A stretch of DNA of 63,009 bases, the filler included, from Craspedostauros australis (lineage: Eukaryota), in the NCBI GenBank assembly GCA_030167865.1. It is 21 parts of 21 records of this genome, joined end to end, with 100 filler letters (N's around TTAATTAATTAA, not from the genome) between each part and the next. Parts side by side here need not be neighbours in the genome. Positions count along the whole stretch, not along the records: positions 14,313 to 22,574 come from JALAGF010002514.1; 20 more parts are not named here. One strand, 5' to 3'. This document shows positions 14,081-59,604 of the stretch, piece after piece. Below the pieces are notes generated by a model. It worked only from the letters and a program-made list of their open reading frames with translations, made no database searches and was not told where the DNA came from. The translations under genes were made by a program, and so were the position numbers. Numbering within the stretch: the first letter of the stretch is position 1; every line of letters begins with the position of its first letter.

Positions 14081-14312
14081 AGATTTATCACTCGTTGCAG
14101 CTGGATCTGGACCGTCCCAAGGTAGGTGCATGCCCATGACCGATGTCAGTATGCAATATAGTTGGTTTAACCCTCTCCTCGTCTTCCGCAGAACAGGATT
14201 CATCAACACCATNNNNNNNNNNNNNNNNNNNNNNNNNNNNNNNNNNNNNNNNNNNNTTAATTAATTAANNNNNNNNNNNNNNNNNNNNNNNNNNNNNNNN
14301 NNNNNNNNNNNN

Positions 14313-17300
14313 GTCGATGTGCCGAAAATACAGAGCCACAGGTGTCTGTTTCGTGCAAATGTCGGATGCATTCAAGTCTGATGCGACTTCTGGGTACGTC
14401 AGGAGATCTCTCTCCACCCAATCGAGGACCGCGAACTCTCGGATCGCTATGTGGCGCGAATTCCGGGTAGGCTGACTGGCGCTGGCCATCAGCCGAGCAC
14501 CGCGATTGTCCTCGAAGATCATAGTCGCATACTGTTGCTTCACTCCAACTTCATCGAGAATGGACCGAAGCCACAAGGCCATGCGGCCAGCATCGCTGGC
14601 AGCAACGAACTCGGCCTCAGTGCTGCTGAGGGAAACAGTGGGCTGTACCCGCGTCTTCCACGCAACGGCGGCGCCTCCAAGCATGTAGATGATGCCGGTC
14701 ACCGAACGCCGATGTCGAATGTCGACCCCCCAATCCGCATCAGTGTACCCATACAGAGTGGAAGCATCGAGCTGTTGTATGCCAGTGACATCATGAATGA
14801 CATCGTCCGCAGGGGATAGCCGGACAGGATGTGGCGCCTGGGGTAGACCCACGAGCGGTCGGACACGCCAATATGTCACGCCATGGTCACGCGTGCCAGC
14901 AACATACCGCATGAGGTATTTCACCCCTTCGAAGTGTAGAGCAGCAGGGTTGGTGGAGAACTGCGAGAGCTTGACGACAGGGAATGATATGTCTGGTCGG
15001 CACGATATCATGGCCCAAATCAACTCGCCAATGGCCTGTCGATAACCAAACTTGAACTGGCTCGCCACTCGTCGGCGCTCGTCATCATCACCTGGGAGGT
15101 CAGCCTTGTCCAAGCTCTTAACGTAGGAATTGTCGGATCTCATAGGCAGCCGTTGAGTGGTCTTGAAGTTCTGCCACTGATACCTCTCCAGCATCTTGTC
15201 AACGTAGGACGTGCAATGGACCTTGACGAAGTCTTGTGTTTGGTCGATGTCTAATCCATTGTAGTGCACCACCAGCCCTTGTCGCGTCATGGGTTGAAAG
15301 AGGTGCGCATCGAGCGAGTCACAGAACTTGTTGAAGACACCCTCGGTGGAGGTCGCGACCGCAAAATCATCCACTTGTCGGAGCACGTAGACTTTGGACG
15401 CATCGACGCTTCCCACGTACAGGCATGGAGCATGCGTGGTACCGTGGAACCCCATCTGCCGTAAGAGACCATTGACGTGGTTGCTCCACTGTCTGGGTGC
15501 TTCCGGATGTCCCTGAAGATTCTTGTGGACGGGAATGACAGCTCCTCGTGGCATGACCTTGCCTCGCCGTTTCTCCCACCAAGAGCGATACTGGTCATCG
15601 ACTCTCATGTAGTACCGTTGTTCCCCAGCAGGAGCTTCAGCGAAGGCATTGGTAACGTCTGATCCGTACACCCGGAGCCCTTGCACTGCCGCAATTGCCA
15701 GAAGAATGCGGAACTCCGTCAAATCCGGTGTAGCAGCGTAGGTGTGCCCAAAAATGCGAGCATGGCCTCCACGCGTTGATCCATCGCAAACCGCTCGAGC
15801 TTTCTTCCGGTTATTCTCGTGCGTTTTGACGACGTACACCCACACCCAGTTGAACACAGCAGCCTGAGCAGGCGGTAACACTGGTTCACCGAATATCTGT
15901 TGTGCATCGTACTGATCGAGCTGCTTGTCCTCGGCCGCGCTCCATTCAGGCCAATCATCTTGTTGCCGCAGCATGCGTCGAGTCAACTTCGTCGGAGCAT
16001 TCGTGACGCTGGTAGCGTGTGCCGTGGGACGCGCGGACTCGATGATGTCCCTCACATGTCGGAGTTGATCGAAGTACAGCTGGGGCACACCAGTTTGCGA
16101 CATCGCGTTGCGTACATCGTCGAAAGCGAACACGAATGTGGCACTGGCAGCCTTGTTGGCACGAAGGCGATCGATGCACTCCTTCAGCTGGTCGAGTGTG
16201 TGAATGGAAGTCTCGTTCACCGCAAGGAGATGCGAGTGTCGAAGCCGCGACCGCCACCTCGGAATGCGAGCAGAGGGCTGGCCAGACCTGCACATCACCA
16301 GCACAAGACGGTCACGCTGGTCATCGTAATCGAACTCCAACCCAAGCGTGGCATCCGTGCCGGCGATCGCAATCTGTTGGTCGAAGCTGAACCCAAACGG
16401 ATTGTCGGCCATCTCAATGTCCACTGCATGTGTTGCGTTCGTAGTTTGGCAACTAGCAGCGGATGCATGTTGTGCAGCCCTGTCAACCAAATCTCCGAGG
16501 GGCAGTGGTATTCTGCACGCGATGGCAGGCGCCTTCGTGTACTTGACCCTGGCAGGCGGGTATGCAGCAGCATCCACGACGCGACCACGAGGTGCATCTG
16601 CACTCGGTTGCTCGAAGCCCAGATCGAAGAGAAGCTGTGGGCCAGGCGGTCGGTCGGACGACATGAAATGCGCCTCATCGAAGACAATATTCCCAGCTCG
16701 CTTGAACCGACCTGTCTGCAAGTCGTAGTACTCGTGCAGCGACGGCGTGGCGGTATGCCCAACAAAAACGCCATCGTATGTATGGATGTCAAGTTTGGCG
16801 GCAGCCTTCCCAGGCTTCTTCACCGTGACACGAGACCCGAAGACTCGCAAGTGCGAAAGGTCTGGCACCACCCCATGCTGGCGTTGATATGGTGTCATGC
16901 CAATGGTGGAGTGATGCAACCGGTTCTTGAGGTAGACCGCATGTGCGAGAGCCTTCGACCAGAACTGCGGGTGCATGCCTGACGAGTACAGCAGAGCTCG
17001 CACCATGGTGCCAAATGTACGGTTGAGTCTTTCGACTTTGCCGTTCATCCAAGCACAGTCGGCTCCGGTGGGCTCCACAGAGTATCCACACTCCAAGACC
17101 ATCTCTCGAAACTGATCGGACCGCGCGAGCTCGCCTCCCAAGTCAACACGAACCGCACGATAGCCGTCCTTGCGCCCGAAAGAAGAGAGCACATGCCTGA
17201 CAGCCGAGATCGGTGGTGACTTGTCCTTGGTCATGAACACCCACACATACGCCGTGTATGCGTCCACGACGAGGAGATACGCGCAGTATCCATCAATGGA

Positions 17301-18245
17301 CTGGACCACCCGAGGAGTGTTGCGGTTGGGTCGTCCTTTGCCATACTCCGCACTGGACGCGCGCATGAACCCAAAATCCACATGGAAACGCGCGCCTGGC
17401 ACATTGGCAGTGGTAGAATCGTTGGGTCCACGCACAGCGTGCTGGTAGCCTGCTTGACTGCATGTGTCACAGTGTCTCAGGGGATGGATGCCCTCACTAG
17501 CAGCAGCGGGTATGCCTGTGGCGCACTTCGCCAGTCGACTCAGCTGGCTCATGCCAACATGTCCCAGACGAAGGTGCCACAGCTCCGAGATGAGGGCCTT
17601 GGACGCTCTCCGAACAGAGAAAACTTGCGAGGACGGACCTTCAAAGTAGTACAGTCCGTTCCTCACCACCAAGGGTACCACCACTGGACCCGCGTCCGAC
17701 GTGAAGACGACTCGAGCACCAGCTGGATTGGACTCGACGCAGAAGCCGCGAAAGTCATTGTCGGATTGTCTGACAATAGCTTGCGGGGAAACCAGCGTGT
17801 CAGCCAGCTGGGGGCAGTGCAACATGTGTACATCCACATGGCGCTCGCTGTCTCCATGCAACTGCATGACTCCAGCACCTGGGCACGCCATGGCTTGAGC
17901 AGAAGCATTGGCAGCCTCCAAAAGGACCGGCGTGGAGAACGTGCGGTACCCTTGCAGGAGCTGCTGGTGCGGTGTAGCACAGACATTGGCTCCAGGATCG
18001 CATTGGCCACCGTCTTGCGTTCGCCATGCTCGGCCGCCGTAGGATCGGGATTGGACCGCAAAAAGCTGTAACTCAGCATGAGCCACGACGGGCACGAGCT
18101 TGGACGGACGCCCGCAGGGGTAGGCTTGAGTAAGCGAAGACACCTCTCCATGTGGAGCGCCTACCGGTGTCTTGCATTCACTGGAAATGTCGTGTAGCTG
18201 TTCACCAGGAAGCGAAGTTATTCCTGGCCAGCAAGCACAAAATCC
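14313..18245 (-). CDS. pol: Pol polyprotein (protease, integrase, PDZ-like insert, RT, RNase H) in -1 frame relative to gag
   Basis: CDPGAN; LWHLRLGH..CDTC; HVDFG/RVDLGGE/NGKVER; KARAVCDG; RQVDDF; YTDADWG..STEAE..EDN. The frame is open from the GGATTTT site to the gap. Confidence 0.93.
18197..18245 (-). promoter_or_regulatory. Candidate -1 programmed ribosomal frameshift signal (G_GAT_TTT, 6-nt spacer, stem-loop)
   Basis: Heptamer 18245..18239 is in gag phase (CAG GAT TTT); hairpin GCTG-GCCAGGAA/TTCCTGGT-GAA-CAGC at 18232..18197; a -1 shift enters the pol frame. Confidence 0.8.
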
Positions 18246-19921
18246 TGAAGCAGCATTTGTGCCACGCGTTCGGCGACATCGTCATCGTCCATCGCACCTT
18301 CGGCGCCAAGGTCGGCACTGGTAACTTGGAGAGCACGGGCAAAAGCTCGAGACTTGTCCTGCGTGTACGTGTCCTTGAATTTCTCCAGCACCTTGGATGC
18401 CAGGTCCGGCTTGGATTCTCGAAGCTCGGCGAAAGCAAGATGACGGGCCCAGTTGAGGCACGAATCCGCTTTGTGTCCACCTTGACGGCAGGCTGCACAG
18501 AAAGCGTCCTTGTCCGGTTGATAGAAAGCAGATCGCTTGCGCTCACCTCTGGGCCCTCCTTGACCTCCCTGCCGAGCAGACGACCTGGTCTGAACACGGT
18601 GTCCAACTGGGCGATGGGCCGCAGTGGGATCGGGGTGAATGGACCGGGCCAAGGCGGATACGTGCAGATGCGGAGGTACACGCTTGGAGTGAGGTTGAAG
18701 CTCCAACGATGTGATGAGGTGCCCAACGTCCATGCCGCTGGCTCGCAGATCCTCGAGGAACCGTCGCGAGAGCTCCACATCAGTGAAATGTCGCTTGTGT
18801 ACCACGGTCTCCGTCTGCTGAAATGCGAGAAGCGCATCAGCATAGAGCACGATATCCTTGTACTCCGAGTACACAGGGGCTTGGCTCACGGTGCGTTCGA
18901 TACGCTGAAAAGCGTCCAGCAGCACCTGATGGAGAAGGAGGTACCCAGACAGCCGGTGCGGGATGACTCCAAAGCACGCCGTGTGGTAAATCTTCACAGA
19001 CGGGTTGTCCAGATCGAGGACGCCATCCTCCTGGAGCTTGCGATTGAGATGGACTCCAGACCGGAAGACGATGTCCCGAGGGGCATTCTTGGGGATGAGG
19101 GAGCACCGCGGGTTGAAGTGCGAAAGAGGCACGAGCACCACGCCAATGCGATCCGCCTCCCCTTGAAGTTGGGTGTACCATTTGAGCACACTGGCAGGGT
19201 CGTCAACGGACAACTGGCTGGTCCAGCGCTGCCAGTAACCCAAGGCATCGCGATCGGGCTCCAGAGGAGACAGGACAGCCTCGTAGGTAAAGTGTGCGGT
19301 GGCGGCAGGGTTGCCATTGGCTGCCGAGTAGGGCAGTCCGGATCCAGTGATGTAGTCGTGCGGCGCCGGCGGCGTAGTCACAGGAGGAGCACCGGAGATG
19401 TCCAGCGGAGTGTCCTCGGTGGCACCATGTGGGCCTTCACGCGGCGAAGGTGTCGCATCACCTGCCAAAGTCGGTCCGTAGTGGCCGGCCACATCGGGGG
19501 CAGTACCACCGGTCTCAGAAGGATTTGGGCCGGCAGGTGGTGGCTTGAGCGCCGCGTCGGCAGCTGGAGGCGGAGGTCCCTTGCCAGTTGTTGGAACAGC
19601 AGAAGGCTTGCTGTCGCGCTTGTATGTGCGGAGAGTGTCACGGTCGAGCGTCGAAGCCCACGACTCAACATCGGGATTGTCGCGATAGTACGCGCGGAGC
19701 TGGCGGAGACCAAACTCGCGAGTGGGAGAGTTCTTTGCCCAAGCGGCAAGAAACCCGTCGAATGCGTCATCGTCCAACTCGAGGAAGTCCCAAAGATCAA
19801 GGGTGTCCTGAATGTTGGCGCCAGTGACGAAGAGACCAGCCCAATGCCAGTTGAGGCGGGCGAAGAGGGTCGTGAGACCTTTGAGTTCGTCAGAACCGAG
19901 AGGGTCGTTTTTGGCGGGCAT
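18218..19921 (-). CDS. gag: Gag protein with CX2CX4HX4C zinc knuckle
   Basis: First in-frame ATG after the PBS (MPAKNDPLG); CAACRQGGHKADSC; ends QDFVLAGQE*. Confidence 0.85.
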   Translation of the reverse strand: MPAKNDPLGSDELKGLTTLFARLNWHWAGLFVTGANIQDTLDLWDFLELDDDAFDGFLAAWAKNSPTREFGLRQLRAYYRDNPDVESWASTLDRDTLRTYKRDSKPSAVPTTGKGPPPPAADAALKPPPAGPNPSETGGTAPDVAGHYGPTLAGDATPSPREGPHGATEDTPLDISGAPPVTTPPAPHDYITGSGLPYSAANGNPAATAHFTYEAVLSPLEPDRDALGYWQRWTSQLSVDDPASVLKWYTQLQGEADRIGVVLVPLSHFNPRCSLIPKNAPRDIVFRSGVHLNRKLQEDGVLDLDNPSVKIYHTACFGVIPHRLSGYLLLHQVLLDAFQRIERTVSQAPVYSEYKDIVLYADALLAFQQTETVVHKRHFTDVELSRRFLEDLRASGMDVGHLITSLELQPHSKRVPPHLHVSALARSIHPDPTAAHRPVGHRVQTRSSARQGGQGGPRGERKRSAFYQPDKDAFCAACRQGGHKADSCLNWARHLAFAELRESKPDLASKVLEKFKDTYTQDKSRAFARALQVTSADLGAEGAMDDDDVAERVAQMLLQDFVLAGQE

Positions 19922-20047: not shown

Positions 20048-20056
20048 CTCATAACC
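20048..20056 (-). promoter_or_regulatory. Primer binding site GGTTATGAG (half-tRNAiMet type) directly after the LTR end ..CACA
   Basis: Minus strand reads ...ATCATCACA|GGTTATGAGG, the GGTTATG signature of copia elements primed from the tRNAiMet anticodon arm. Confidence 0.75.
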
Positions 20057-20418
20057 TGTGATGATCGGGAGACGATACGGGATGTGTTGTGTGTGTGATG
20101 ATGTTATTGTGATTATCTCCGACCGTGCAGAGGCTGTGAACATGGGATTTGCTGCTGCACCGTCTGTCATGGGACCGTATACCAACAAAAGAAGGAAAAG
20201 ACGGAGACAGCGACATGTCGCGAAAAGTGCGAACGAGAGAAGGTCGCAGCAGCAACAGTCCGAGAGTTCGGCGCGACGGAGGCGCGCGTCCTCGCAGCGC
20301 GGAAAATCCGTTCTCGCGTAGTGTTCGCTCGTACCGCGGAGGGACGTGTGCATCAAAAACACAGCCGCGATCTTTTGAGCCTTGGACGACAAGCGCAAAT
20401 CACTCGTTCGGTGACACA
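20057..20418 (-). repeat. Putative 5' LTR (outer boundary uncertain)
   Basis: Inner end is fixed by CA+PBS; candidate TGTG...CACA termini at 20418 (alternative 20363); no second LTR to confirm. Confidence 0.5.
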
Positions 20419-20486: not shown

Positions 20487-21680
20487 ATGGCGCAAGCATC
20501 CTCTTTGGCACCATCGCCGCCATCTTCGCCACCGGCTCAGAAAATGTCGACGACTGCAACATTCAACACGGTCATCCTCGTCGTGGTGGCAGCTGCCATC
20601 GGGACCATCAAAAAGAGGAACGACAACCTCGACGATGCCGAACTGCCTAATGACCTGGAGGGTCTGCGCTCCTGGAAGGTCACCATGCCCATCATGGCCA
20701 TCGCCTACATCTACGGTGCCGTGCAGACCCTCAGAAGCTCCGCTCTCACCATGGAATGGGTCCAGTCCATCGACTTGTGCTTCCTAGCATCACTCGCCGT
20801 CTCTTTTCAACTGGAGCCACTCATGGAATCCAGACTCGACGAACGTCTGAACAAGCCGTTGTGGCCGATATTGTGCGCAGTCCATCTCTTCAACAGCCTG
20901 ACGCCGCTCTCCATGGTCTCCATCCTGCGCCCAGCCTTGATGGCCCTCAAGAAGGGAGACGCTGCCGACGCCACCGTCACCAAGGACAGCAGCAGCAGCA
21001 AGGCTGATACGAAGCAGACGGAAAAGTCAGAAAGCTGGACGAGCCGGGATCAGATGCTGTCCGACATCTTCTGGGGTCTGGGTGCAACCATCACCATCAT
21101 CGGCAACTTCTCCGAGATCGTCGGTCACGAATTCGACGGATGGGTGTACCTTCCCAAGTCAGAGTCATCGTCGGGATGGACGAACTTCGTTTTCTGCCTG
21201 GGACTGTGCGGCGGCATGAGTGGCCTGGCTGCCGCCGTCACGCCAACAAACACCAAGAAAGTCGCACTGGCCTTCCTCCCGACGGTGCTGGTGGCGTTGG
21301 TACCGGTCACCTTGGGATGGAGCCAATCGATCAAGCCGATCGTGTTCTCATGCCAAGGATTGGCATCCGGCCTTGGTGCGTATGCTGTGGGAAGCACCTT
21401 CGGCAGCCACTGGCCATGGCTGTACTTCGTGCAGTCATTCAACATCGTGAGAAATGCATCCCGCATCCAGTCCACCGGCATCCAGGCCTTGCATCTGATG
21501 ACCTCATGCTTCGGTTTCTTTTCGTACACGGTTCCATTCGCTTTGAGTGTGAACAAGACAACGAAGTCGGCACCGCTGTGGGCTGTGCTCTTGGTGAGTG
21601 CCGCGTCGGTGTACTTGGGCGGTGAATTGGAGAACTACATTGCATCAACAGAGTGGGGACAGTCGACGGGCATTTATTAG
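20487..21680 (+). CDS. Multi-pass membrane protein, unknown family (start may be ATG at 20544)
   Basis: 397-aa intronless ORF with strong codon bias and many hydrophobic segments. Confidence 0.75.
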   Translation: MAQASSLAPSPPSSPPAQKMSTTATFNTVILVVVAAAIGTIKKRNDNLDDAELPNDLEGLRSWKVTMPIMAIAYIYGAVQTLRSSALTMEWVQSIDLCFLASLAVSFQLEPLMESRLDERLNKPLWPILCAVHLFNSLTPLSMVSILRPALMALKKGDAADATVTKDSSSSKADTKQTEKSESWTSRDQMLSDIFWGLGATITIIGNFSEIVGHEFDGWVYLPKSESSSGWTNFVFCLGLCGGMSGLAAAVTPTNTKKVALAFLPTVLVALVPVTLGWSQSIKPIVFSCQGLASGLGAYAVGSTFGSHWPWLYFVQSFNIVRNASRIQSTGIQALHLMTSCFGFFSYTVPFALSVNKTTKSAPLWAVLLVSAASVYLGGELENYIASTEWGQSTGIY

Positions 21681-22674
21681 TGCACTCCCCCAATTGGATT
21701 GATGAGAGAAAGCCATCGCAGATTGGTGCAAGAGAATCTACAGCATTCACATTATAGTAGTACCAGTCACAAACAAAGCCAAGGCAACATGCTCGTACCC
21801 AGTGCTGGAATTCATGATCTCGCATGACGGCGGATTGCAACGGAAGTTGATTTCGCATACTCTGTGCTCTCTTCCGCAGGAGACGTGGTGTGCGCGCATA
21901 CGCCATGCCCATAATCGCCTTTGCGACGACTACTCCGCGATGAGCGAGACAGAATAAAGATGGGCGAGGTGTATCGCGAAAGCTGAGGATCCTAGAATTA
22001 GTTGATAGTTGCATTTTTGAACGATCGTCGTCGCCCTCGCAATTCTTCTTGGAGCTGATTGCATTGCGCTGCTTGTCTCGAATCAAAATTCCCGTACGCT
22101 CTTCATCTCTCCCAGCCCGAAGAGACTTCGCGATACCAACCTGCCCTGGGCTGCTTTCGTGCCATCAGATTCAATCCACACCGGCTGGTGGACACAAACT
22201 GCTTGGGAGGACAAGAGCGAAATCCATTTCGGTGGTGTATTTATGGTAGTATAGCTGTGCCATGATTTGGAGAGATGCAATTGTGGGCGTTGGTGAGACC
22301 TTCATAGCTTGTGTGTGCGAAAACAAATTGCGAAGCACCGTGATCTTGGCATGTCAGTCAGGAGCATTGTGCGAATAAAGCGAAAGACGAGAACAAAAAT
22401 CAATCGCGGCCGCCCTGCGTCATAATTCCGCGCACAGTAGTGACGTACCGTAACCCACAGACCATCAATTCTGCACTTGGTCACATTTTGTTCCGGCGAG
22501 TGGCAACGACGCAAATCTGATGCCATTTGAAGCATGTACGTGCATGTATTGGTACCGAACCGCAACATGCTTCCNNNNNNNNNNNNNNNNNNNNNNNNNN
22601 NNNNNNNNNNNNNNNNNNTTAATTAATTAANNNNNNNNNNNNNNNNNNNNNNNNNNNNNNNNNNNNNNNNNNNN

Positions 22675-26220: not shown

Positions 26221-26320
26221 NNNNNNNNNNNNNNNNNNNNNNNNNNNNNNNNNNNNNNNNNNNNTTAATTAATTAANNNNNNNNNNNNNNNNNNNNNNNN
26301 NNNNNNNNNNNNNNNNNNNN

Positions 26321-28142
26321 CCTTCGGTTCAGCTACTTCTCCACCATCCCAAATGCTCCTGGCCATATCGGCATCAAAGTCATGAAGTCCAAGAATGCTG
26401 CAGAGATCAGCAGGATTGCATTGCAGATTATTGTCGGATCATTCGATATCAAGTACTGTCCGATCCTTGCTCTTGCCATCCATATGGAGGCATCTATGCA
26501 CAAGACAGAACGAGAGGAGCCCTACCTGTTCTCCATGCGTGGTACTGGCGACAAGGTGCCCAAGCTGACTCTATCAGTAACGAAGGATGCGATCTCCCAC
26601 TGCGTGAACGATCCAGAGTTCAAGGTCATCTCTAGCGAAGGGCCCATCAAGCGCCTCGGAACCCACTCCATCCGCAAGTGTTCCGCCACCCACGCAATGA
26701 ACGTTGGTTGCTGCTTCACTACCGTCGTAGAGCGCGCCCGCTGGATGCTGCCCCAGCGAGCTATTCTGAACAAGTACATTCCTGCCACTCTCTCGTATCC
26801 TGATGCAGAGGTAGCATGCAGATCCACGCCCGAAGCACCATGCACCTACAAGATTGTCAAACCTGAAGTCGTCACAGATGATTGGCTCCTCGACAATGTC
26901 GCAAGGAAGATCCGACATCGTCTTGCCCCTCCCCTTGCCCTTGCATTTGCTCGTGGCCTGCTGTGGGGTGCAATGGACGCACATGCCTCCAAGATGATGC
27001 CTGAGTGGCTCCACAAGGACGTTAGTGAGGCCTACGAGCAGCTTGCGACTAACTCTGACTTGGACCCAACAGTCAACCCAGTGGAGCGAGTCTGCCTCTA
27101 CGTCGGCAACGTACGCGGCATGCTCAAGATCGCTGAGGGCCCACGTCCTATCATCAATCGAGCTGCTGGCACAGGTGGTAATCCATTTGAGGCCTACCAA
27201 CATGCCAAAGGGGTGGGAAGGGTCACTGTAACCATGTTCGAGACCCAGCAGCTGGCGCTCGATGGCATCAAGTCGGGTATAGAGACGGTCAGGACCACCG
27301 TTGCATGCAACCAGGTCAAGAGCAACAAGATGGAGATGAAGCTGGACCTGATGGAGACAAAGCTAGACAGGATGGAGAACAAGCTCGACGTCCTCCTCGA
27401 TCTTCTCACGAAGAACAGCAGCCATCATCAACCACCCACCATCGATCCGGCACCAGCAGCATCTGTGCCAATTGATGTGCCTGTGCCATCCACACCAACA
27501 CCAACCGAGACAGTACCAATTGATGTGTCTGTGCCACCAACACCAACACCAACACCGACCGAGACAGCACCAACTGAAGAACCTAAGCCATCTCCGCCAA
27601 CGCCGATCGATGCACCTACGCCAACTGTAACATTTGCACCTATGGAGGTCGAGCCAGAACTGTCTCCTGCAGCACAGGCAGAGGCCGAAGCAAGGCTGGA
27701 AGAGCAGAGATTGGAGCAAGCCGTGGCTGTGGTGGCAGAGCGGAAGCGAATCGCGAAGCAAGCGAGAGCAAGAGTAGCCGCGATCTCACAGCAGACGAAC
27801 AAACCCGATCCTGGGAGAGCAGTCCTCACCCCGCAACTAGGTACGTTGAAGATGCTCTGGAGAGAGTATCATGAGGGATTTAATGGGTTGATGGCAGCAA
27901 AAGAGATGAACAAAGAAACGGACTTGAAGAACAGCAACAACAAGTTCATTTGGAACCGTCGCAAGTTCATTTGGGAGGAGTTCGAGCGTCTCGCTGAGCT
28001 CGGCGTTGAAGGGCCAGCAGCATTAGCGAACATACACAGAGAGTTTGGCAAGGTGGCCACTGGCCAACTCAACATCGCAATCGGCAAAAGGAACAGAGCC
28101 AAAAAGAAGGCCTCCGAAGCCGCCGCCAAAGCCAACAAGTAA
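26321..28142 (+). CDS. Crypton (CryptonS-like) tyrosine recombinase with C-terminal GCR1_C-like DNA-binding domain; 5' truncated
   Basis: LGTHSIRK (HxxR), RARW and NKY catalytic motifs; CPILALAIH; coiled coil; C-terminal TLKMLWREYHEGFNG..WNRRKFIW. Confidence 0.85.
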
Positions 28143-36357: not shown

Positions 36358-39051
36358 TCATCCACGCAAATTCTTGTGTTCCACCGACAATGGCATTGGC
36401 ATTGCTGCTGCAGCCACTGGAACGTCCAACTCAAACATTCCAAGACGACCATTCATTGCTGACGGACAATCCTCCGGCACGGGCAATGGGCAGATGGGAT
36501 CGAATTCGTAGTTGTACAGCTCGCCGCCCGCCACATCCATGCACAGATCGCCGGCCACGATCATGCGTCCGCTGTGACCAGGAAAGGTGATGTTCACATC
36601 GCCGAACGGCACCACGACGCTGCCTCGGAATTGGCCGTTGCCCAGCAACCCATCTCCCAGCACGACCGTGTCCGTGGCGTTGTAGAAATTCCACAAGATG
36701 TTGGCCGTCACGTCGCTGTCAAAGTCAAAGTCCGTGTTGCCGAACGGGTCGATGAACTTGGCGATGTTGGCGATCGTCACGATGCCGTCAGCGGATGCGG
36801 CGACGTTGATCAGGACCGTCTTGCACGACAGAGTCGAATCGAGCTGGATCAGAGTTCCGAAATCGCGAAAGTCGAGGTCGTCGTGTTCCAGATGGAAGAC
36901 CTGCAAGCAGTCATCATCACCGGCGAGCAATTCGACGCGGTTGCCCGTGAAGTGCTCATCGCGCGAAATGAAGACGCCGTTGGCGGGGAGTTCGGACCAG
37001 TACTTGGATTTGGTCTGCAGGTCGGTGAGGGCCGTGGTGTATTTGTCGAGGTTGACGGGCGACTGCTGTTGCGTGATGTTGCCGCCCAAGGTGGTGATCT
37101 TTCCCGTGCCCGTGTTGTCGCCACCGTACACAACGTTCACTCGTTGCAAGATGGCAACATCCTTGCGGATATCCAGATCCTGACCCACGAGCAGCACATC
37201 CGTGCCATCGTTGGGAACGACCTGAGATCCAAATCCGGCGCGCACCAAGGAATTGAATCCGGACACGATGCGGAAGCTTCCCACCGTCACGATCTTACCT
37301 TCGATTTCGGCACCGTCCTTGCCCACGAAGTCGCCACCGACGAGGACGGAGACCGAATCGTCGCGTCCCAGCGGGACGAGGCTGGTTTGGATCTTGGGGT
37401 ACGTGGTGACGTTGCCACTGCCTTCGCTGAAGCAAGCGCCAAGGTTTGGTGGGCAGGTAGATGTGACATTGGTCGGTGGCAGACAGATGCACATCCCGGC
37501 GATGGCTGGTCCGGATAGGGCAGCGCTGGGTGCCAGGGTTGGCGCTGGCGTTGGGGTCGGTGCCATGCTGGAAAGCGAATCGAGGTAGGTCTCCGTCCAC
37601 AATTCGTCTTCCTCAAGAACGCTGTCGGCAATTGCGTTGGCCAGATCTTCCTCAATCGTGCTCGTCTTGACGATACAGATACCTTCGGTCGCGAACATGG
37701 GCGTGGGTGCCTGCGATGGGACTTGCGATGGCTGGGATGTGGCTTCGGGAATGGGACAGAGCTCAGGGAGAGGCAATGGGCAGAAAGGATCGAATTCGTA
37801 GTTGTGCAATTCGCTGGACTGCCAATCTTGGCAGACGTCGCCCTGCACGAGGATACGCCCGCTGTGTCCCGGGAAGGAGATGGTCAAGCTGCCGTGCGGA
37901 ACGAGCAGGCTGCCTTGGAACTGGCCGTTGCCGGTGAGGCCGTCACCGAGGATGACCTCTTGTGCATCATAGAAGTTCCATAGGATGTTGGCGGTGGTAT
38001 CGGCGTTGAACTGAAAGTCGGTGTCGCCGAATGGATCGATGAACTTGGCGAGATTGGCAATAGTCGCGGTGCCGTTGGCGTCGCTCTTAATGTTGAGGAG
38101 GATGGTCTTGTCTGCCAAGTTGGGATTGAGCTGCACCAAGGTCCCGAAATCGCGGAAGTTGAGATCATCGGAATCGATGTGGTAGACTTGGAGGCAGTCG
38201 GTGTCCCCGGCGAGAAGCTCGACGCGATTTCCAGTTGGGTGTTCATCGCGCGTGATGAAGATGCCGTTGGCTGGGAGGTTGGACCAGAACTCAGCCTTGA
38301 CCTTTGCATCCTCGAGGATGCCCCTGTACTTGGCGAAGGAAAGGCTGCGATCGCGTGTGACGTTGCCCTTCGTAAAGATGGCACCTTGACCGAGGTTGCC
38401 GCCTCTGTGCACGACGTTGACACCGTCTCCGGAGAAGGAAACAGTGATGTCGGTATCCATTGCGAGGTTGCCACCGACGATGACGGCGTCTTCACCATCG
38501 TTCGGGATGACATTCGAGCCAAAACCAGAACGAACGAGCGAAGTGAATCCCGAACCGCTGAGGATGTTGAAATCTCCTATAGTCACAATCTTCCCTTCGA
38601 TCTCAACCCCCCGCTTGCCGAAGAAGTTCCCGCCGATGAGAAGGGAGACAGAATCGTCACGGCCGAGAATGTTTGGCCCTGCTTGAATGAGTGGGTAGGT
38701 ATCCAGGCTTCCAAGTCCGGTACCTTCGCTGATGCAATCACCAAGGTTCGGTGGACAGTTGGTGGTGGAGGATGGCGTAGGTGTTGGGCACACACAAAAT
38801 CCTGGTGTGTATGCGGTAGGAGCGCCAGTAGGTCCAGCGATGGTGGCAGCCGTTGGTTCTGAGGTTGGCGGGAGGCTCGAGATGGTATCGGAGAGGGTCC
38901 GCAACCACACGGATTCCTCCTCCAACTGGGCTTGATCGACATCATGATCGATGTTGAGGATGGGACCAGCGTTGGAGTTCCATCCTGAAACCCATCCGGG
39001 ATGGAGAAGGAGGGATGCCGGAAGCAGGCTCAAGGGCAAAGAAATCTTCAT
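36358..39051 (-). CDS. Secreted protein with two tandem choice-of-anchor A (ice-binding-like beta-solenoid) domains; trailin-like adhesin candidate
   Basis: Signal peptide MKISLPLSLLPASLLL; LRTL (RXL) site; PT-rich linkers; duplicated domain DSVS.L.GG.F...EIEGK...ANILWNFY.A...QF.GS...P.G...GHSGR...EL.NYEFDP. Confidence 0.85.
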   Translation of the reverse strand: MKISLPLSLLPASLLLHPGWVSGWNSNAGPILNIDHDVDQAQLEEESVWLRTLSDTISSLPPTSEPTAATIAGPTGAPTAYTPGFCVCPTPTPSSTTNCPPNLGDCISEGTGLGSLDTYPLIQAGPNILGRDDSVSLLIGGNFFGKRGVEIEGKIVTIGDFNILSGSGFTSLVRSGFGSNVIPNDGEDAVIVGGNLAMDTDITVSFSGDGVNVVHRGGNLGQGAIFTKGNVTRDRSLSFAKYRGILEDAKVKAEFWSNLPANGIFITRDEHPTGNRVELLAGDTDCLQVYHIDSDDLNFRDFGTLVQLNPNLADKTILLNIKSDANGTATIANLAKFIDPFGDTDFQFNADTTANILWNFYDAQEVILGDGLTGNGQFQGSLLVPHGSLTISFPGHSGRILVQGDVCQDWQSSELHNYEFDPFCPLPLPELCPIPEATSQPSQVPSQAPTPMFATEGICIVKTSTIEEDLANAIADSVLEEDELWTETYLDSLSSMAPTPTPAPTLAPSAALSGPAIAGMCICLPPTNVTSTCPPNLGACFSEGSGNVTTYPKIQTSLVPLGRDDSVSVLVGGDFVGKDGAEIEGKIVTVGSFRIVSGFNSLVRAGFGSQVVPNDGTDVLLVGQDLDIRKDVAILQRVNVVYGGDNTGTGKITTLGGNITQQQSPVNLDKYTTALTDLQTKSKYWSELPANGVFISRDEHFTGNRVELLAGDDDCLQVFHLEHDDLDFRDFGTLIQLDSTLSCKTVLINVAASADGIVTIANIAKFIDPFGNTDFDFDSDVTANILWNFYNATDTVVLGDGLLGNGQFRGSVVVPFGDVNITFPGHSGRMIVAGDLCMDVAGGELYNYEFDPICPLPVPEDCPSAMNGRLGMFELDVPVAAAAMPMPLSVEHKNLRG

Positions 39052-40687
39052 GTTGCGATTGGGTGGGGTCGAACCGGTGGGAAGAACTGAATTGTGAGCA
39101 GTCGATAGGCAAGACCAGGAAGTCTGGTGTGGAGCAGTTGGATTTGCGTTGTGTTGTGGTGTGATGTGATGTGCTGCGTAATCCATGCGATGCGATGAGC
39201 AACGCGGAAGAGTCAAGGGAGAGCATTGGATGTGGTGAAGGTTGGCCGATGGAGCTTGAATCCCACCGGTGGCTTCAGTTTGCTGATGGATCGATATGCT
39301 TCCTCTTGTCTTTGTCTTGATTTTGGGAGCACATCTTTCCCACGCGCAGCCTTCATCATGCTGCCTCTCGCTCGCTCCCACGTGCGCACATGTGCACATG
39401 CATACATGAAGCCATATCCTGCCTGTCTTCTGTGGGATATTGGTGCCGTTGACCATGCCTCGTCTATCATCTGATCGCCACCTCCGTCGCCAACCTCCAC
39501 TCCCTTTCTTCACCTCTCGCCAACAGGCTCTGTCTATCCTCCTGTGTCTTTCGCTGCTCACTGCTCGCCGCTCGCTTCTTCCTTCTCACGGCTCACCCAT
39601 CGCTCCTTGCATTCCCATCTACCCACCACCAATCCCGCCCTCGCTCTTTCCCTCCCACTGTCTCCCTCGCTTCCCCTCGTCTCTCTCGACTGCAGAAATC
39701 GGCGACGACCCCGTCAAACACCCATCAGCAATCATTGGGAATCACCAAAGACAAAGATAAAGGCAAACACAAGCAGACCCAACAGTCGAAGAACCGACCA
39801 AGTCAACATGCGCAAACACACAAAGCCAGAAAGTGGCAACGGATTCCCGGTGGTGCCGGTTTGCAATCCCATCGCAGAAACGAATGGGACATGTGGCGGC
39901 TTCAGCTTGACATTGAAGGGGGGATAATCCTCGCTATGTCCATCGCCGGAGGAGTTGGAGTTGTCATCGCGTGCAAGACAATTGCCTAACAATGTATAAC
40001 ATAATAGAATGGATGAACGATGCCGTCCCTCTCTGGTGGGAGCTCAGCCCTCCGACAATGTGTGTGTTCCTCATGAGTCGATCCCAAGAAGGGCCGTTTT
40101 GCCTCATTGTCCCAGTTTTATGGTGTATGGAAGTTTCTGTAGAGTGGGACAATAAGTGGTAGCATCTTCTTTGTGTGGTGACTGGATGGATACGCGTGTG
40201 TGTGTGAATGTGTGGGTGGGGAGGCACCCCACATCCTCGTACCGTCCGAGTAGTCTGGAGAACACTCGCGACTTTGATGCAAGTGTAGAGCAAATGAAGA
40301 GATCAACGGTCGTTGTTGTGTATTTGTCTTTGTGTGGCTTGGTGGGAATCTGCACGCGTGTCGCATTTTGTCGTTCGTGACACGAAGAAATTGATTTGGC
40401 GCCATTTTGGTTTTCATTCGAGATGGTCCATACATACAGTGTGCAACGAGTGTAGAGAGCAGAGTAGATCTGGAGCACGGTTTTGGGTGGATGCATGGGG
40501 CAAATGTCAAAGCAAAGAAGGGAGCTTGAGTAAAGCATAGTAGAGTAGAGTATATCAATCGTACATCACAAGAGAGAGTTGGAGTGTATTACAATTGATG
40601 ACACTCTTACGTGCACACGCTCGTACTTGCCATCGCCTCCCCCGCGTCGCTCAATGTCTTGGTACGCACCATAGAGTAGTCCGGAGC

Positions 40688-54289: not shown

Positions 54290-54389
54290 NNNNNNNNNNN
54301 NNNNNNNNNNNNNNNNNNNNNNNNNNNNNNNNNTTAATTAATTAANNNNNNNNNNNNNNNNNNNNNNNNNNNNNNNNNNNNNNNNNNNN

Positions 54390-55526
54390 GTTCGTCTTTT
54401 GATAGAACAGGCACGGATCTGCCGCGCTCTGTTCGAAGTTGATGTTCTTGAGGGTCGACACCAACATCTTAAACCACTGCCTGGCGCTCTGAACAAGTCT
54501 GTAGATTGGCTTGTGCAGGGTCAGGGCTTCGTCTGCTTGATGATCCATCCCGTTGGGACAGTTCATGTAGATCTCCTCGTCGAGGTCTCCACGTAGGAAT
54601 GCCATTACAACATCAACGAGTGCGCAGTCCATCTGCTTGATCAGCATCATGACTCTGTAGGTCACGTCATGGATGACAGGTGAGTAGTGCTCTTGGAAGC
54701 CTACTCCTGCAACTTGTGAGTAGCCACATGCAACGAGTCTCGCTCGATGTGTGCCATCGCGTTTCAACTTGAATACCCACTTGCACTTGCAGCATCTGTG
54801 GCCTCGTGGGATGGCGTTTCGTTTGATCTTGCTGTACACCTTGCGTGTATCCATGGAGTTGAACTCCTTCTTGATGGCTGCTTGGTATCCCTTTTGGTGG
54901 ATGGGATCCGGATGGTTGAACGCTCCATTGAATGTCGTTGGTTCGATGTGCTTCTCGGATTCTTCATTCTGGTTCTGCTTCGACAATCAGATGTTGATCG
55001 CTGGTGTCTTGGCGATGGTTGCGTTCATCCTGTATAATCCGCTCGTGCTGTGATGTACAACCTCTATCTCTTCTACTTTGTCTACAATTTCCTCATCGTC
55101 TGTGTTCTCATTGTCATCACTCGTTTCATTGTTCGACTTGTCGGCTAGCTCGTCACTGAGTTCGTCGCTCTCCTCATTCGATGATGATTTGCCCTCATCA
55201 TCTCGTTCTTTTTGACCTGGTATGTTGTAGTCTGCGAGTGCGCACAGTGCTCTGGGAATCTTCTCCCCTGTGGTAAGCTTGGATTTGTTCTGTCCCTTCC
55301 TGCCTCTTGCTTCGTGGCGTTGGAGTCGCTCCTTTCTGTCAATGTCACACTTGCTTGGTTTGGTCGGTAGGAGTCTATATGTTGTGCCATGCGTATACCT
55401 CGCTGGAGTGTTCTGTGGAGTGACATCCACGTCGTCGTTGGCTTCGTCGCCGGATGGTGGAATGTTGACATCCTCTGGGTCGGATTCGCTCCGATCTTCC
55501 TTGTTCTCGAGCAGTTCAGTCGCTGC
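54390..55526 (-). pseudogene. Degenerate copia INT-RT linker and RT N-terminus
   Basis: EPTTFNGAF, CKWVFKLKRDGTHRARLVACGYSQ, DVVMAFLRGDL; premature TGA at ~54987 (GGA in copy 58334+). Confidence 0.92.
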
Positions 55527-55626
55527 NNNNNNNNNNNNNNNNNNNNNNNNNNNNNNNNNNNNNNNNNNNNTTAATTAATTAANNNNNNNNNNNNNNNNNN
55601 NNNNNNNNNNNNNNNNNNNNNNNNNN

Positions 55627-56763
55627 GTTCGTCTTTTGATAGAACAGGCACGGATCTGCCGCGCTCTGTTCGAAGTTGATGTTCTTGAGGGTCGACACCA
55701 ACATCTTAAACCACTGCCTGGCGCTCTGAACAAGTCTGTAGATTGGCTTGTGCAGGGTCAGGGCTTCGTCTGCTTGATGATCCATCCCGTTGGGACAGTT
55801 CATGTAGATCTCCTCGTCGAGGTCTCCACGTAGGAATGCCATTACAACATCAACGAGTGCGCAGTCCATCTGCTTGATCAGCATCATGACTCTGTAGGTC
55901 ACGTCATGGATGACAGGTGAGTAGTGCTCTTGGAAGCCTACTCCTGCAACTTGTGAGTAGCCACATGCAACGAGTCTCGCTCGATGTGTGCCATCGCGTT
56001 TCAACTTGAATACCCACTTGCACTTGCAGCATCTGTGGCCTCGTGGGATGGCGTTTCGTCTGATCTTGATGTACACTTTGCGTGTATCCATGGAGTTGAA
56101 CTCCTTCTTGATGGCTGCTTGGTATCCCTTTTGGTGGATGGAATCCGGATGGTTGAACGCTCCATTGAATGTTGTTGGTTCGATGTGCTTCTCGGATTCT
56201 TCATTCTGGTTCTGCTTCGACAATCAGATGTTGATCGCTGGTGTCTTGGCGATGGTTGCGTTCATCCTGTATAATCCGCTCGTGCTGTGATGTACAACCT
56301 CTATCTCTTCTACTTTGTCTACAATTTCCTCATCGTCTGTGTTCTCATTGTCATCACTCGTTTCATTGTTCGACTTGTCGGCTAGCTCGTCACTGAGTTC
56401 GTCGCTCTCCTCATTCGATGATGATTTGCCCTCATCATCTCGTTCTTTTTGACCTGGTATGTTGTAGTCTGCGAGTGCGCACAGTGCTCTGGGAATCTTC
56501 TCCCCTGTGGTAAGCTTGGATTTGTTCTGTCCCTTCCTGCCTCTTGCTTCGTGGCGTTGGAGTCGCTCCTTTCTGTCAATGTCACACTTGCTTGGTTTGG
56601 TCGGTAGGAGTCTATATGTTGTGCCATGCGTATACCTCGCTGGAGTGTTCTGTGGAGTGACATCCACGTCGTCGTTGGCTTCGTCGCCGGATGGTGGAAT
56701 GTTGACATCCTCTGGGTCGGATTCGCTCCGATCTTCCTTGTTCTCGAGCAGTTCAGTCGCTGC
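55627..56763 (-). pseudogene. Near-identical duplicate of 54390-55526
   Basis: Same ends, same stop codon, only about 5 SNPs seen. Confidence 0.92.
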
Positions 56764-56863
56764 NNNNNNNNNNNNNNNNNNNNNNNNNNNNNNNNNNNNN
56801 NNNNNNNTTAATTAATTAANNNNNNNNNNNNNNNNNNNNNNNNNNNNNNNNNNNNNNNNNNNN

Positions 56864-58233
56864 CCATCTTCTTGATCAGCATGATCACCATCATGACCCG
56901 ATAGGTCACGTCATGGATGACGGGTGAGTAGTGCTCTTGGAAATCCACTCCTGCGATTTGTGAATAACCACATGCAACGAGCCGCGCTCGATGCGTGCCG
57001 TCACGTTTCAGCTTGAAGACCCATTTGCATTTGCAGCATCTGCGGCCGCGTGGAATGGCGTCTCGTTTGATCTTGCTGTACACTTTACGTGTGTCCATGG
57101 AGTCGAACTCCTTCTTGATGGCTGCTCGATATCCCTTTCGATGGATAGGGTCTGNNNNNNNNNNNNNNNNNNNNNNNNNNNNNNNNNNNNNNNNNNNNNN
57201 NNNNNNNNNNNNNNNNNNNNNNNNNNNNNNNNNNNNNNNNNNNGCTGGTGATTCGGTAATGATTGCATTCATTCCGTACAGTCCTGTTGTGCTATAGTGA
57301 GTGATCTCAATCTCTCCTTCATCTGCAATTTCTTCGTCATCTATAGTTTCGTTGTTGGAGTCGTCGGCCATTTCGTCGCTGAGTTCATCACTGTCTTCAT
57401 TGGATGATGGATCGCTTTCGTATCCTTCTTCCTTTCGACCTCGTTCGTTGTAGTCTGCGAGCTCACGCAGAGCTCTGGGAATGCTCTTCCCTGTAGTCGG
57501 CTTGGGATTAGCTTCTCCCTTCCTGCCTCGTGCTTCGTGACGTCGGATCCTCTCCTTTCTGTCTATGTCACGTTTACTTGGTTTGCTCGGTGGAGGTCTG
57601 GATGGTGTACCATGTGTAGACCTTGCCGGTGTGTTCGGAGGAGTGACGCCTGTGTCATCGTCGGCTTGGTCGCCGGATGATGTGATCTCGTCATCCTCAT
57701 GATTGGATTCGCTCCGATCTTCCTCGTTGTCATGGACTAGTTGAGTCACTACTCCATCGTCCTCATTATCCTCATCGTCGCTGTCCGATAGGATGTAGTA
57801 CCTGTTGCTGTCGGCGAAAGATACTCTCTTCGCTTCCGATGTTTGACGCGTTGCCGTCCTTGGCATTACTCCCTTCCGTCCAATGGTTGTGAAGCCGTTT
57901 GCGTCCGTTGTTCCTCTTTCGTTGGATATGTTCGGTGCTGGCGCCCAGCCACGGAACTGTTCGTATGATTGGTTGAGCCACTTAATGTCGCGAGAACAGA
58001 TGAGTGACTTGGTCGATGGTCTGTACATGTTGTAGACCCCTGATGCATGTTGGTGTGCATATCCGATGAACACCATCTCTTCTCCTCTNNNNNNNNNNNN
58101 NNNNNNNATCCCGCCGTAGGTAGTCTTCACAACACCCACCTCTCCGAAAGTGCGGAGTGCATCCGCGTATGGTGGATCGTTGCCGAAGAATTGTCGGTGT
58201 GGTGACTCCTTTTGATTCTTCGCTACGGTGATG
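56864..58233 (-). mobile_element. Copia integrase C-terminus (SH3-like), linker and RT start
   Basis: LRTFGEVGVV..RGEEMVFIGYA..SRDIKWL; CKWVFKLKRDGTHRARLVACGYSQ. Confidence 0.9.
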
Positions 58234-58333
58234 NNNNNNNNNNNNNNNNNNNNNNNNNNNNNNNNNNNNNNNNNNNNTTAATTAATTAANNNNNNNNNNN
58301 NNNNNNNNNNNNNNNNNNNNNNNNNNNNNNNNN

Positions 58334-59604
58334 TGCTCAACGGAGCACAGCTCGACGAAGAGTATAGGCATGGCCTGTGGGCAGCAGCTGCTAGCACTGC
58401 CACCGCCATCGCCAACACCACCGTAGCGAAGAATCAGAAGGAGTCACCATACCGCCAATTCTTCGGAAGCGATCCACCATACGCGGATGCACTCCGTACA
58501 TTTGGAGAGGTGGGTGTTGTGAAGACTACCTACGGCGGGATTACCGCCAAGCTCAAGAATAGAGGAGAAGAGATGGTGTTCATCGGATATGCACACCAAC
58601 ATGCATCAGGGGTCTACAACATGTACAGACCATCAACCAAGTCACTCATCTGCTCACGCGACATCAAGTGGCTCAACCAATCGTACGGACAGTTCCGTGG
58701 CTGGGCACCAGCACTGAACATATCCAACGAAACAGGAATGACAGACGCAAACGGCTTCACAACCATCGGACGGAAGGGAGCAACGCCAAGGACGGCAACG
58801 CGTCAAACATCGAAAGCAAAGAGAGTATCTTTTGCTGACAGCAACATGTACTACATCCTATCGGACAGCGACGATGAGGATAATGAGGACGACGGAACAG
58901 TAATTCAATCAGTCCATAACGACGAGGAGGATCGGAGCGAATCCAATCATGAGGATGACGAGATTACACCATCCGGCGACGAAGCCAACGATGACACAGG
59001 CGTCACTCCTCCGAACACACCAGCGAGGTCTACACATGGCACACCATCCAGACCTCCACCAAACAAGCCAAGCAAGCATGACATAGCTAGAAAGGAGAGG
59101 ATCCGACGTCACGAATCACGAGGCAGGAAGGGAGAAGCTAATCCCAAGTCAACTACAGGGAAGAGCATTCCCAGAGCTCTGCGTGAGCTCGCAGACTTCA
59201 ACGAACGAGGTCGAAAGGAAGAAGGATATGAAAGCGATCCATCATCCAACGAAGACAGTGATGAACTCAGCGACGAGNNNNNNNNNNNNNNCAACAACGA
59301 AACTACAGATGACGAAGAAATTGCAGATGAAGGAGAGATTGAGATCACTCACTATAGCACAACAGGACTGTACGGAATGAATGCAATCATTACCAAATCA
59401 CCAGCGATCGACATCGGACTGTCGATGCAGGACCAGAACAAAGAACCAGAGAAGCACATCGAACCTACAACATTCGATGGAGCCTTCAATCATCCAGACC
59501 CTATCCATCGAAAGGGATACCGAGCAGCCATCAAGAAAGAGTTCGACTCCATGGACACACGCAAAGTGTACAGCAAGATCAAACGAGACGCCATCCCACG
59601 CGGC
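58334..59604 (+). mobile_element. Sister copy of the same copia family
   Basis: GLWAAAASTAT, LRTFGEVG, KLKNRG, EPTTFDGAF; highly similar to the reverse complement of 56864-58233. Confidence 0.9.

What the first reader, a model, noticed from the sequence alone, without database searches (positions are those of the whole stretch)
16120..16400. PDZ-like domain embedded between integrase and RT of an intact copia Pol
Seen: FSFDQQIAIAGTDATLGLEFDYDDQRDRLVLVMCRSGQPSARIPRWRSRLRHSHLLAVNETSIHTLDQLKECIDRLRANKAASATFVF. Established PDZ pattern: GLGF-like loop (TLGLEF), beta strand, 'PGSPA' (SGQPSA), 'L+.GD.ILAVNG' (LRHSHLLAVNE), helix, final strand. PDZ is not a canonical copia domain. Inference: an integrase C-terminal peptide-binding module that could tether integration to a host protein, analogous to chromodomains in chromoviruses or the Ty5 targeting domain.
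Basis: partly seen in the sequence, partly recalled or inferred. Interest (0 to 1): 0.7.

Follow-up and report, generated by a model that had tools for sequence, protein, structure and literature searches.

The report
PDZ domain fixed in copia retrotransposons
A young jumping gene of a diatom-type family carries a true PDZ protein-binding fold between its integrase and reverse transcriptase, kept by the whole deep family, which suggests an undescribed step in how these elements assemble, travel or insert.

Summary
Confirmed. The segment (minus strand, 16119-16397) lies in the 1323-codon stop-free Pol of a young Ty1/copia element. A template-free AlphaFold2 model (core pLDDT 95-98) matches only PDZ domains: 50 of 50 listed VIA rows, best GIPC2, Z 11.4, 2.4 A over 93 residues. 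The carboxylate loop and hydrophobic pocket are conserved; the 'GD' and class I His are not. It is no one-off: 72 matches in the genome, present in 120 of 120 listed relatives picked by RT-RNase H alone (one from Skeletonema menzelii), dN/dS 0.13 against 0.32-0.46 in the linkers, absent from distant copia families. In 55 of the 120 a dUTPase sits between integrase and PDZ, and an Ala-rich or cleavage-site-like motif often precedes the domain, so it may be cut loose rather than stay on integrase. Single CCHC knuckle argues against the chromodomain-bearing CoDi-A clade. My literature searches found no report; this scan noted the same domain in another genome.

The parts
16119..16397 (-). PDZ-fold domain (first to last strand), Pol residues about 629-721
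   Evidence: AlphaFold2 strands 19-28 to 103-111 of the 142-aa model, pLDDT 95-98; VIA Z 11.4 to GIPC2 PDZ; dN/dS 0.126
16338..16349 (-). carboxylate-binding (GLGF-like) loop T-L-G-L
   Evidence: hydrophobic-Gly-hydrophobic in 148/150, 145/150 and 149/150 rows; coordinates
16239..16256 (-). family-specific W-R-S-x-L-R helix, in place of the usual G-L-x-x-G-D
   Evidence: Trp 98%, Arg 81%, Ser 90% of rows; extra helix 66-69 in the model
16395..16412 (-). conserved N-terminal extension (S/A-x-D/N-P-F) just before the first strand
   Evidence: Pro 93%, Phe/Tyr 84%
16032..16091 (-). conserved helix after the PDZ (G-x-P-Q-L-x-x-D-Q-L type)
   Evidence: helix 127-140 in the model; dN/dS 0.086; seen in all 25 Pols aligned
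16452..16469 (-). Ala-rich motif before the PDZ, candidate protease site (inferred)
   Evidence: 24 of 29 dUTPase-less Pols, shuffle mean 2.3, max 8, control window 0 of 29; 39 of 70 dUTPase-bearing Pols; pattern written after seeing the alignment
15975..16025 (-). linker with candidate PDZ/RT protease site, up to the start of RT
   Evidence: PR/IN-trained motif score 4.49 against 1.65 +/- 0.30 in shuffles, n=99
14313..18281 (-). pol ORF: protease (D-x-G-A-N at 17985-18002), integrase (zinc finger, DDE core, SH3-like), PDZ, RT, RNase H; 3' end cut by N gap
16665..17657 (-). integrase (gag_pre-integrase to SH3_retrovirus)
   Evidence: Pfam PF13976 residues 209-277, PF25597 residues 470-539; D302, D380, E417
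18218..19921 (-). gag ORF, 567 aa, one CCHC knuckle
18197..18245 (-). -1 frameshift signal: slippery heptamer G GAT TTT (18239-18245) and a bulged hairpin
   Evidence: heptamer in phase in 11 of 12 elements that show the junction; 4 of 9 pairs with compensatory change, 0/500 shuffles for covariation score
20057..20187 (-). 5' LTR, 131 bp, TG...CA; flank ends in TCTTT
   Evidence: 99% to the 3' LTR of L021; 40 matches in the genome
20048..20056 (-). primer-binding site, 9 nt complementary to the anticodon arm of a host tRNA-Met
   Evidence: tRNA-Met(CAT) at L092:1472-1546; 9-nt match ending at tRNA position 41

Best explanation
This is a real PDZ domain captured long ago by the ancestor of one deep diatom-type Ty1/copia clade and kept ever since (shown). 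It is made as part of Gag-Pol by a -1 frameshift (signal shown, use inferred). It has an intact carboxylate loop and a hydrophobic pocket, so it most likely binds a short peptide ending in a hydrophobic residue, not of class I (inferred). I think it is most likely cut out of Pol by the element's protease, together with the helix behind it, as a roughly 145-150 residue adaptor, and serves a step every member needs (particle assembly, ordered processing, or carrying the particle or cDNA complex through the cell) rather than steering integrase on chromatin (inferred). Fold and fixation: about 0.97; peptide binding: about 0.7; this particular role: about 0.4.
For: Fold: with concordant weaker signals from ESM Atlas, PDB sequence profile (6 of 6 hits PDZ, E 0.8-1.4) and Pfam. 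Fixation: 120 of 120 listed RT-selected relatives, HMM E<=3e-16; none in 13 distant own-genome copia loci, 6 of which span integrase to RT. Selection: dN/dS 0.126 against 0.319 and 0.46 in the two linkers, 0.077 integrase core, 0.073 RT. Groove. Detachment: dUTPase between SH3 and PDZ in 55 of 120, 54 of them in one subclade of 57 with support 0.93; Ala-rich motif at a fixed distance from the PDZ; junction-trained motif enriched before the PDZ in dUTPase-bearing Pols, 0/200 shuffles, with both controls not enriched; flanks low in model confidence.
Against: The cleavage evidence is mixed: the first, PR/IN-trained motif was not significant before the PDZ in dUTPase-less Pols (1.08 against 0.35 +/- 0.59) and marginal in the others; in the dUTPase-less retrain the PDZ-core control also beat all shuffles, and IN-only training gave 8/200; sequences are related, so shuffles overstate significance; the model draws the Ala-rich stretch as a low-confidence helix, which could be a spacer. 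No ligand is identified: Gag ends (E, D, P, S) and Pol ends are not a conserved hydrophobic tail. The basic residue before the carboxylate loop is present in only 79 of 143 rows and is missing in this copy.
Confidence: 0.42

Rival explanations
1. Integrase tether: the PDZ stays on integrase (or on an integrase-dUTPase fusion) and binds the tail of a chromatin or nuclear-pore protein, steering insertion as chromodomains or the Ty5 targeting domain do.
For: Same position as known targeting modules; a site separates it from RT; no PR/IN-like site is needed between SH3 and dUTPase once the artefact is removed; CoDi-A elements of diatoms are reported with a putative chromodomain at this place (PMC2774666, passages).
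Against: dUTPase inserted between integrase and PDZ in 55 of 120; conserved motif before the PDZ; no common target sequence in flanks of 30 of 40 LTR matches, apart from duplicated loci and three similar pairs; retention without a single loss over a very deep clade fits a core step better than a host-specific tether (inference).
Confidence: 0.3
2. The fold has been repurposed: the conserved basic Trp-Arg-Ser helix and the helix behind it bind nucleic acid (tRNA primer fragment, cDNA end) or pack on RT or integrase, and the peptide groove is secondary.
For: The best-conserved residues include the family-specific W-R-S-x-L-R patch and the N-terminal P-F; the trailing helix is as constrained as the enzymes (dN/dS 0.086); groove-facing positions vary; class I His in only 4 of 147.
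Against: The carboxylate loop and pocket residue are kept in over 95% of rows; the domain has no net charge in this copy (12 K/R, 12 D/E); the Trp could simply be core.
Confidence: 0.2
3. A functionless passenger or a prediction artefact.
For: Below Pfam cut-offs; slightly less constrained than the enzymes.
Against: Template-free model from element sequences only; 120 of 120 retention; purifying selection.
Confidence: 0.03

Closest known systems
Canonical eukaryotic PDZ domains (GIPC2 3gge, MPDZ PDZ11 2qg1, GIPC1 5v6b, PSD-95 PDZ3 1bfe)
   Same: Same topology, not circularly permuted; Z 11.4, rmsd 2.4 A over 93 residues; carboxylate loop and pocket kept.
   Different: About 12% identity; no GD motif; extra Trp-Arg-Ser helix; no class I His; embedded in a retrotransposon polyprotein. 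None of 18 host PDZ loci scores against the element profile (best E 0.24), so no recent donor was found.
CoDi-A / CoDi-I diatom copia elements with a putative integrase chromodomain (PMC2774666; PMC5348765)
   Same: Diatom-type copia with an extra domain behind integrase.
   Different: CoDi-A is tabulated with no CCHC knuckle; all 12 related loci with a gag region have one. The fold here is PDZ, not chromo. The published chromodomain alignments are images that I could not read, so identity of the two segments is unlikely but not excluded directly.
CoDi-C (CoDi6.1, 6.6, 6.7) of PMC2774666
   Same: One CCHC knuckle, GIGG/GATG-type protease flap resembles the flap patterns in this clade.
   Different: Tabulated as 'Chromo No, Add No'; no PDZ or dUTPase noted. 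No reference sequences were available, so the assignment is tentative.
Ty3/gypsy chromoviruses and the yeast Ty5 targeting domain (Ty5 recalled; chromoviruses from passages of PMC5348765 and PMC9289625)
   Same: Accessory module at the integrase C-terminal end.
   Different: Different fold; here often separated from integrase by a dUTPase; no targeting shown.
dUTPase-bearing retroviruses and fungal chromoviruses (PMC2774666 passage)
   Same: dUTPase inside Pol in 55 of 120 relatives.
   Different: Copia order, dUTPase between integrase SH3 and PDZ; absent from the element in this window.

Membership tests
PDZ domain | beta-sandwich of 5-6 strands with two helices, canonical order | tested here: met
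   (predicted model, not a solved structure)
PDZ domain | carboxylate-binding loop hydrophobic-Gly-hydrophobic before the second strand | tested here: met
   148/150, 145/150, 149/150
PDZ domain | Arg/Lys a few residues before the loop | tested here: inconclusive
   79 of 143 rows; absent in this copy
PDZ domain | hydrophobic pocket residue on the long helix | tested here: met
   145 of 147 at the position I assign from the secondary structure; assignment is by analogy, no superposition was available
PDZ domain | Pfam PDZ score above the curated cut-off | tested here: not met
   none in this copy; best member E 5.6e-4; reflects divergence, not fold
PDZ domain | binds C-terminal or internal peptides | not testable with these tools
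   needs a binding assay
Class I PDZ | His at the first position of the long helix | tested here: not met
   His 4 of 147, hydrophobic 106 of 147
Ty1/copia (Pseudoviridae) | pol order PR-IN-RT-RH with RVT_2 | tested here: met
Ty1/copia (Pseudoviridae) | LTRs TG...CA, PBS, polypurine tract, 5-bp target duplication | tested here: met
   5' LTR and PBS in the window; tract and duplications in sibling copies
CoDi-A / CoDi-I | no CCHC knuckle in Gag (table AF3A of PMC2774666) | tested here: not met
   one knuckle here and in 12 of 12 related loci
CoDi-A / CoDi-I | chromodomain behind integrase | tested here: not met
   no chromo hit in Pfam; segment folds as PDZ
CoDi-C | one CCHC and GIGG/GATG-type protease flap | tested here: inconclusive
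   compatible but shared with other clades
CoDi-C | RT groups with CoDi6.1/6.6/6.7 | not testable with these tools
   reference sequences not available
Integration-targeting integrase modules (chromoviruses, Ty5) | module stays on mature integrase | tested here: inconclusive
   junction-motif tests mixed
Integration-targeting integrase modules (chromoviruses, Ty5) | biased insertion sites that depend on the module | tested here: inconclusive
   no shared flank sequence; no annotation or chromatin data for a proper test

The most novel reading that the evidence does not exclude
A whole ancient clade of diatom-type copia elements encodes a fifth mature Pol product, a PDZ adaptor released by the element's own protease, that reads free C-termini (those made during polyprotein processing, or the tail of a host trafficking or chromatin protein) and so couples particle maturation to transport or target choice; a subclade added a dUTPase in front of it. 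It would be the first PDZ domain used by, rather than targeted by, a retroelement that my searches could find.
Probability: 0.3. Interest if true: 0.8.

Novelty: new variant of a known kind. Interest (0 to 1): 0.62.

Why it matters
Fixed gains of domains are described as rare in LTR retrotransposons, and a screen of plant elements found none in copia (PMC9289625, passages). Viruses usually carry short motifs that hijack host PDZ proteins (established knowledge); here the mobile element owns the PDZ reader. It is fixed across a deep, currently active clade of elements in major marine algae, is small and folds well in prediction, and has natural comparators (with and without dUTPase, and PDZ-less copia families in the same genome), so its ligand and its role in processing, transport or target choice are directly testable.

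Tried and rejected
Complex prediction of the PDZ with the 40 residues upstream ending at the Ala-rich motif: no answer, score 0.00, alignment not used; no evidence either way. Ala-rich motif as an internal ligand: the longer model draws it as a helix at pLDDT about 55, not as a strand in the groove; not supported, not excluded. Gag or Pol C-terminus as the ligand: ends are not conserved. An apparent cleavage motif between SH3 and dUTPase was rejected: it is the first strand of the dUTPase itself. The D-P-G protease site as a defect: rejected, shared by sibling families with identical LTRs, and position 2 varies across the clade. Recent capture from a host PDZ gene: no similarity to 18 host PDZ loci. 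Single-sequence searches of PDB and Pfam: nothing. Viral fold library: best hit a PDZ protein of a coccolithovirus at E 0.011, not informative on origin. Expression: no RNA holder listed. Placing the clade among named CoDi groups: reference sequences and chromodomain alignments could not be read. L055 lacks the PDZ but also integrase, an internal deletion, so it is not a clean loss. The hairpin alone is not unusually stable (z -0.88); its support is covariation.

Full report
Observation. Pfam places the integrase zinc region at 209-277, the SH3-like integrase domain at 470-539 and RVT_2 at 811-1041, and finds nothing in the segment itself. The element is a Ty1/copia LTR retrotransposon: 5' LTR of 131 bp at 20057-20187, a 9-nt primer site complementary to the anticodon arm of a host tRNA-Met, gag at 19921-18218 with one CCHC knuckle, and pol in the -1 frame. 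Its 3' end is lost in an N gap. A 100% identical LTR on contig C196 whose flank begins with the same five bases as the 5' flank here is probably its other end (inferred). Six of 20 fetched sibling loci, plus two partial cases, have 100% identical LTR pairs, so the family is young.

Fold. An alignment of 99 element sequences gave a template-free AlphaFold2 model with pLDDT 95-98 over residues 21-110 of 142. Foldseek against the PDB listed only PDZ-bearing chains (21 matches at E<=0.001, best 3.9e-4). The independent VIA search over 48,161 chains listed 50 of 50 PDZ-bearing entries, best GIPC2 at Z 11.4, rmsd 2.4 A over 93 residues, in canonical eukaryotic order. Weaker sequence signals agree: named ESM Atlas clusters are PDZ for this copy (0.93) and for a Skeletonema menzelii relative (0.83, a lead only); an 18-sequence profile hit 6 of 6 PDZ chains at E 0.8-1.4; the 99-sequence profile hit 10 of 12 PDZ-type chains at E 0.4-3.9, the other two being an unrelated viral protein; 10 of 99 members touch PDZ_6 at E<=0.1, below cut-off. 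The carboxylate loop is hydrophobic-Gly-hydrophobic in 148/150, 145/150 and 149/150 rows and the pocket position on the long helix is hydrophobic in 145/147 (helix positions assigned by analogy from the secondary structure). Departures: no GD (Asp in 1/152), His at the class I position in 4/147, Lys/Arg before the loop in 79/143 and not in this copy, and an extra helix with Trp in 98% of rows.

Distribution and selection. The own genome has 72 matches. The representative library has 708 at E<=0.001, of which the best 150 were seen: 115 have flanks that match copia Pol, 4 only the trailing helix motif, 22 are too short to tell, and 9 gave no automatic evidence (by eye most of these 9 look like Pol fragments). 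To avoid choosing by the domain, I searched with RT-RNase H only: 437 hits, the best 120 listed at 40-61% identity. All 120 carry the domain at E<=3e-16, and 55 also carry a dUTPase between the integrase SH3 and the PDZ (architecture confirmed by Pfam). The other 317 were not seen. The only named host among 20 proteins looked up is the diatom Skeletonema menzelii; the host of this window was not determined. Thirteen distant copia loci of the same genome (RT 25-29% identical; six span integrase to RT) have no hit, and the other copia fragments in this window have an acidic low-complexity linker instead. A FastTree RT-RH tree of 134 rows sets the PDZ-bearing group on a long stem and puts 54 of the 55 dUTPase rows in one subclade of 57 (support 0.93); the stem support itself is only 0.80 and long outgroups make the root uncertain. 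Pooled over six disjoint own-genome pairs, dN/dS is 0.126 in the PDZ, 0.086 in the trailing helix, 0.319 and 0.46 in the linkers, 0.077 in the integrase core and 0.073 in RT (one pair is near saturation).

How it may work. Pol is most likely made as Gag-Pol by a -1 frameshift: the heptamer G GAT TTT is in phase in 11 of 12 elements that show the junction and is followed by a bulged hairpin with compensatory changes in 4 of 9 pairs (9 sequences; covariation score above 500 of 500 shuffles and above all slid controls). The PDZ therefore need not bring Pol into the particle, and neither Gag nor Pol ends in a conserved hydrophobic tail. A motif trained on the protease/integrase junction is strongly enriched between PDZ and RT (4.49 against 1.65 +/- 0.30, n=99) but not clearly before the PDZ (1.08 against 0.35 +/- 0.59, n=29; 1.53 against 0.81 +/- 0.35, n=70). 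Retraining on both junctions gave enrichment before the PDZ in both subsets (0/200 shuffles), but in the dUTPase-less subset the PDZ-core control also passed and IN-only training gave 8/200. Separately, an Ala-rich motif (pattern written after seeing the alignment) precedes the domain in 24 of 29 and 39 of 70 Pols (shuffle mean 2.3 of 29), 52 of 63 times at 14-25 residues, with or without dUTPase in front. Related sequences inflate all of these tests. Taken together they make release of a PDZ-plus-helix product somewhat more likely than not, without proving it. Insertion sites give no positive sign of targeting: 5-bp duplications vary, several contain GATC, and flanks of 30 of 40 LTR matches share no common sequence apart from duplicated loci and three similar pairs; a chromatin bias could not be tested. 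I commit to a peptide-binding adaptor in the element's own cycle (0.42), with an integrase tether (0.30) and a repurposed nucleic-acid or enzyme-binding surface (0.20) as rivals.

Comparison with what is known. PMC2774666 (passages; supplement 2 text, supplement 3 table rows) reports a putative chromodomain behind integrase in CoDi-A diatom elements and has no mention of PDZ in the main text. Its table gives CoDi-A no CCHC knuckle, CoDi-B and CoDi-C one, CoDi-D two, and marks B-D as without chromodomain or added genes. This clade has one knuckle in 12 of 12 loci and a flap closer to the CoDi-C pattern than to CoDi-B's LPDG, so it is probably not CoDi-A and tentatively CoDi-C-like. The chromodomain alignments in that paper and in PMC5348765 (passages; supplement 5) are images I could not read, and the supplements of PMC2806351 (parts 1-2 of 7 and passages read) were unavailable; these may bear on the clade name. 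PMC3248453, PMC9289625 and bioRxiv 10.1101/2025.10.24.684338 (passages) hold no 'PDZ'. Full-text searches for PDZ with copia, retrotransposon, integrase, polyprotein, diatom or stramenopile terms and for dUTPase with copia returned listings with no paper evidently on this; listings only were seen, and subscription journals, GyDB and Repbase were not searched.

Verdict. A real, selected, clade-wide PDZ domain in copia Pol; a new variant of the known theme of accessory domains in LTR retrotransposons. Its job is not shown, and the tether reading is one of three open ones. Interest 0.62.

Noticed in passing
window 18197-18245 (-): Conserved -1 frameshift cassette (G GAT TTT, 6-nt spacer, hairpin with a 3-nt purine bulge) between gag and pol; a -1 signal of this build is recalled from plant RNA viruses and is unusual for copia elements (recalled).
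   Followed up: yes
proteins P0032, P0075, P0161-P0203 and others (not in the window): A large subclade of these copia elements carries a dUTPase between the integrase SH3 domain and the PDZ (55 of 120); not evident in my two literature searches.
   Followed up: partly
window 20048-20056 (-); L092:1472-1546: Primer site matches the anticodon arm of tRNA-Met, suggesting priming by a tRNA fragment as recalled for Drosophila copia and Ty5.
   Followed up: partly
window 17985-18002 (-): Protease active site reads D-P-G-A-N; across the clade it is D-x-G-A-N with Pro, Ile, Leu, Val, Ser, Thr or Gly in place of the usual Thr/Ser.
   Followed up: partly
window 54342-59652: Several partly duplicated fragments of an unrelated copia family with an acidic disordered integrase-RT linker; 1237-bp near-identical duplications suggest assembly redundancy.
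   Followed up: partly
window 20546-21680 (+): An ORF of about 380 codons with no Pfam hit starts about 360 bp from the 5' LTR, pointing away from the element.
   Followed up: no
L045:270-7541, L046, L051: Distant copia families in this genome have very long (about 600 aa) integrase-RT regions with apparently helical, non-Pfam segments.
   Followed up: no
P0005; L059 (G000:C6195): Two cases with the PDZ region present twice in tandem; may be real duplications or assembly artefacts.
   Followed up: no
L055 (G000:C1455): Internally deleted derivative that joins the end of protease in frame to the start of RT, lacking integrase and PDZ.
   Followed up: partly
window 36358-39585 (-): 1075-aa ORF with two putative ice-binding-like adhesive domains (PF20597).
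   Followed up: no
window 26277-28142 (+): ORF with a GCR1_C domain, possibly a Crypton-like element (recalled association).
   Followed up: no
window N gaps, e.g. 14213-14312 and 22575-22674: The window is made of separate contigs joined by N runs with a short fixed linker; sequence across a gap need not be adjacent (the probable 3' flank of this element is on another contig).
   Followed up: partly
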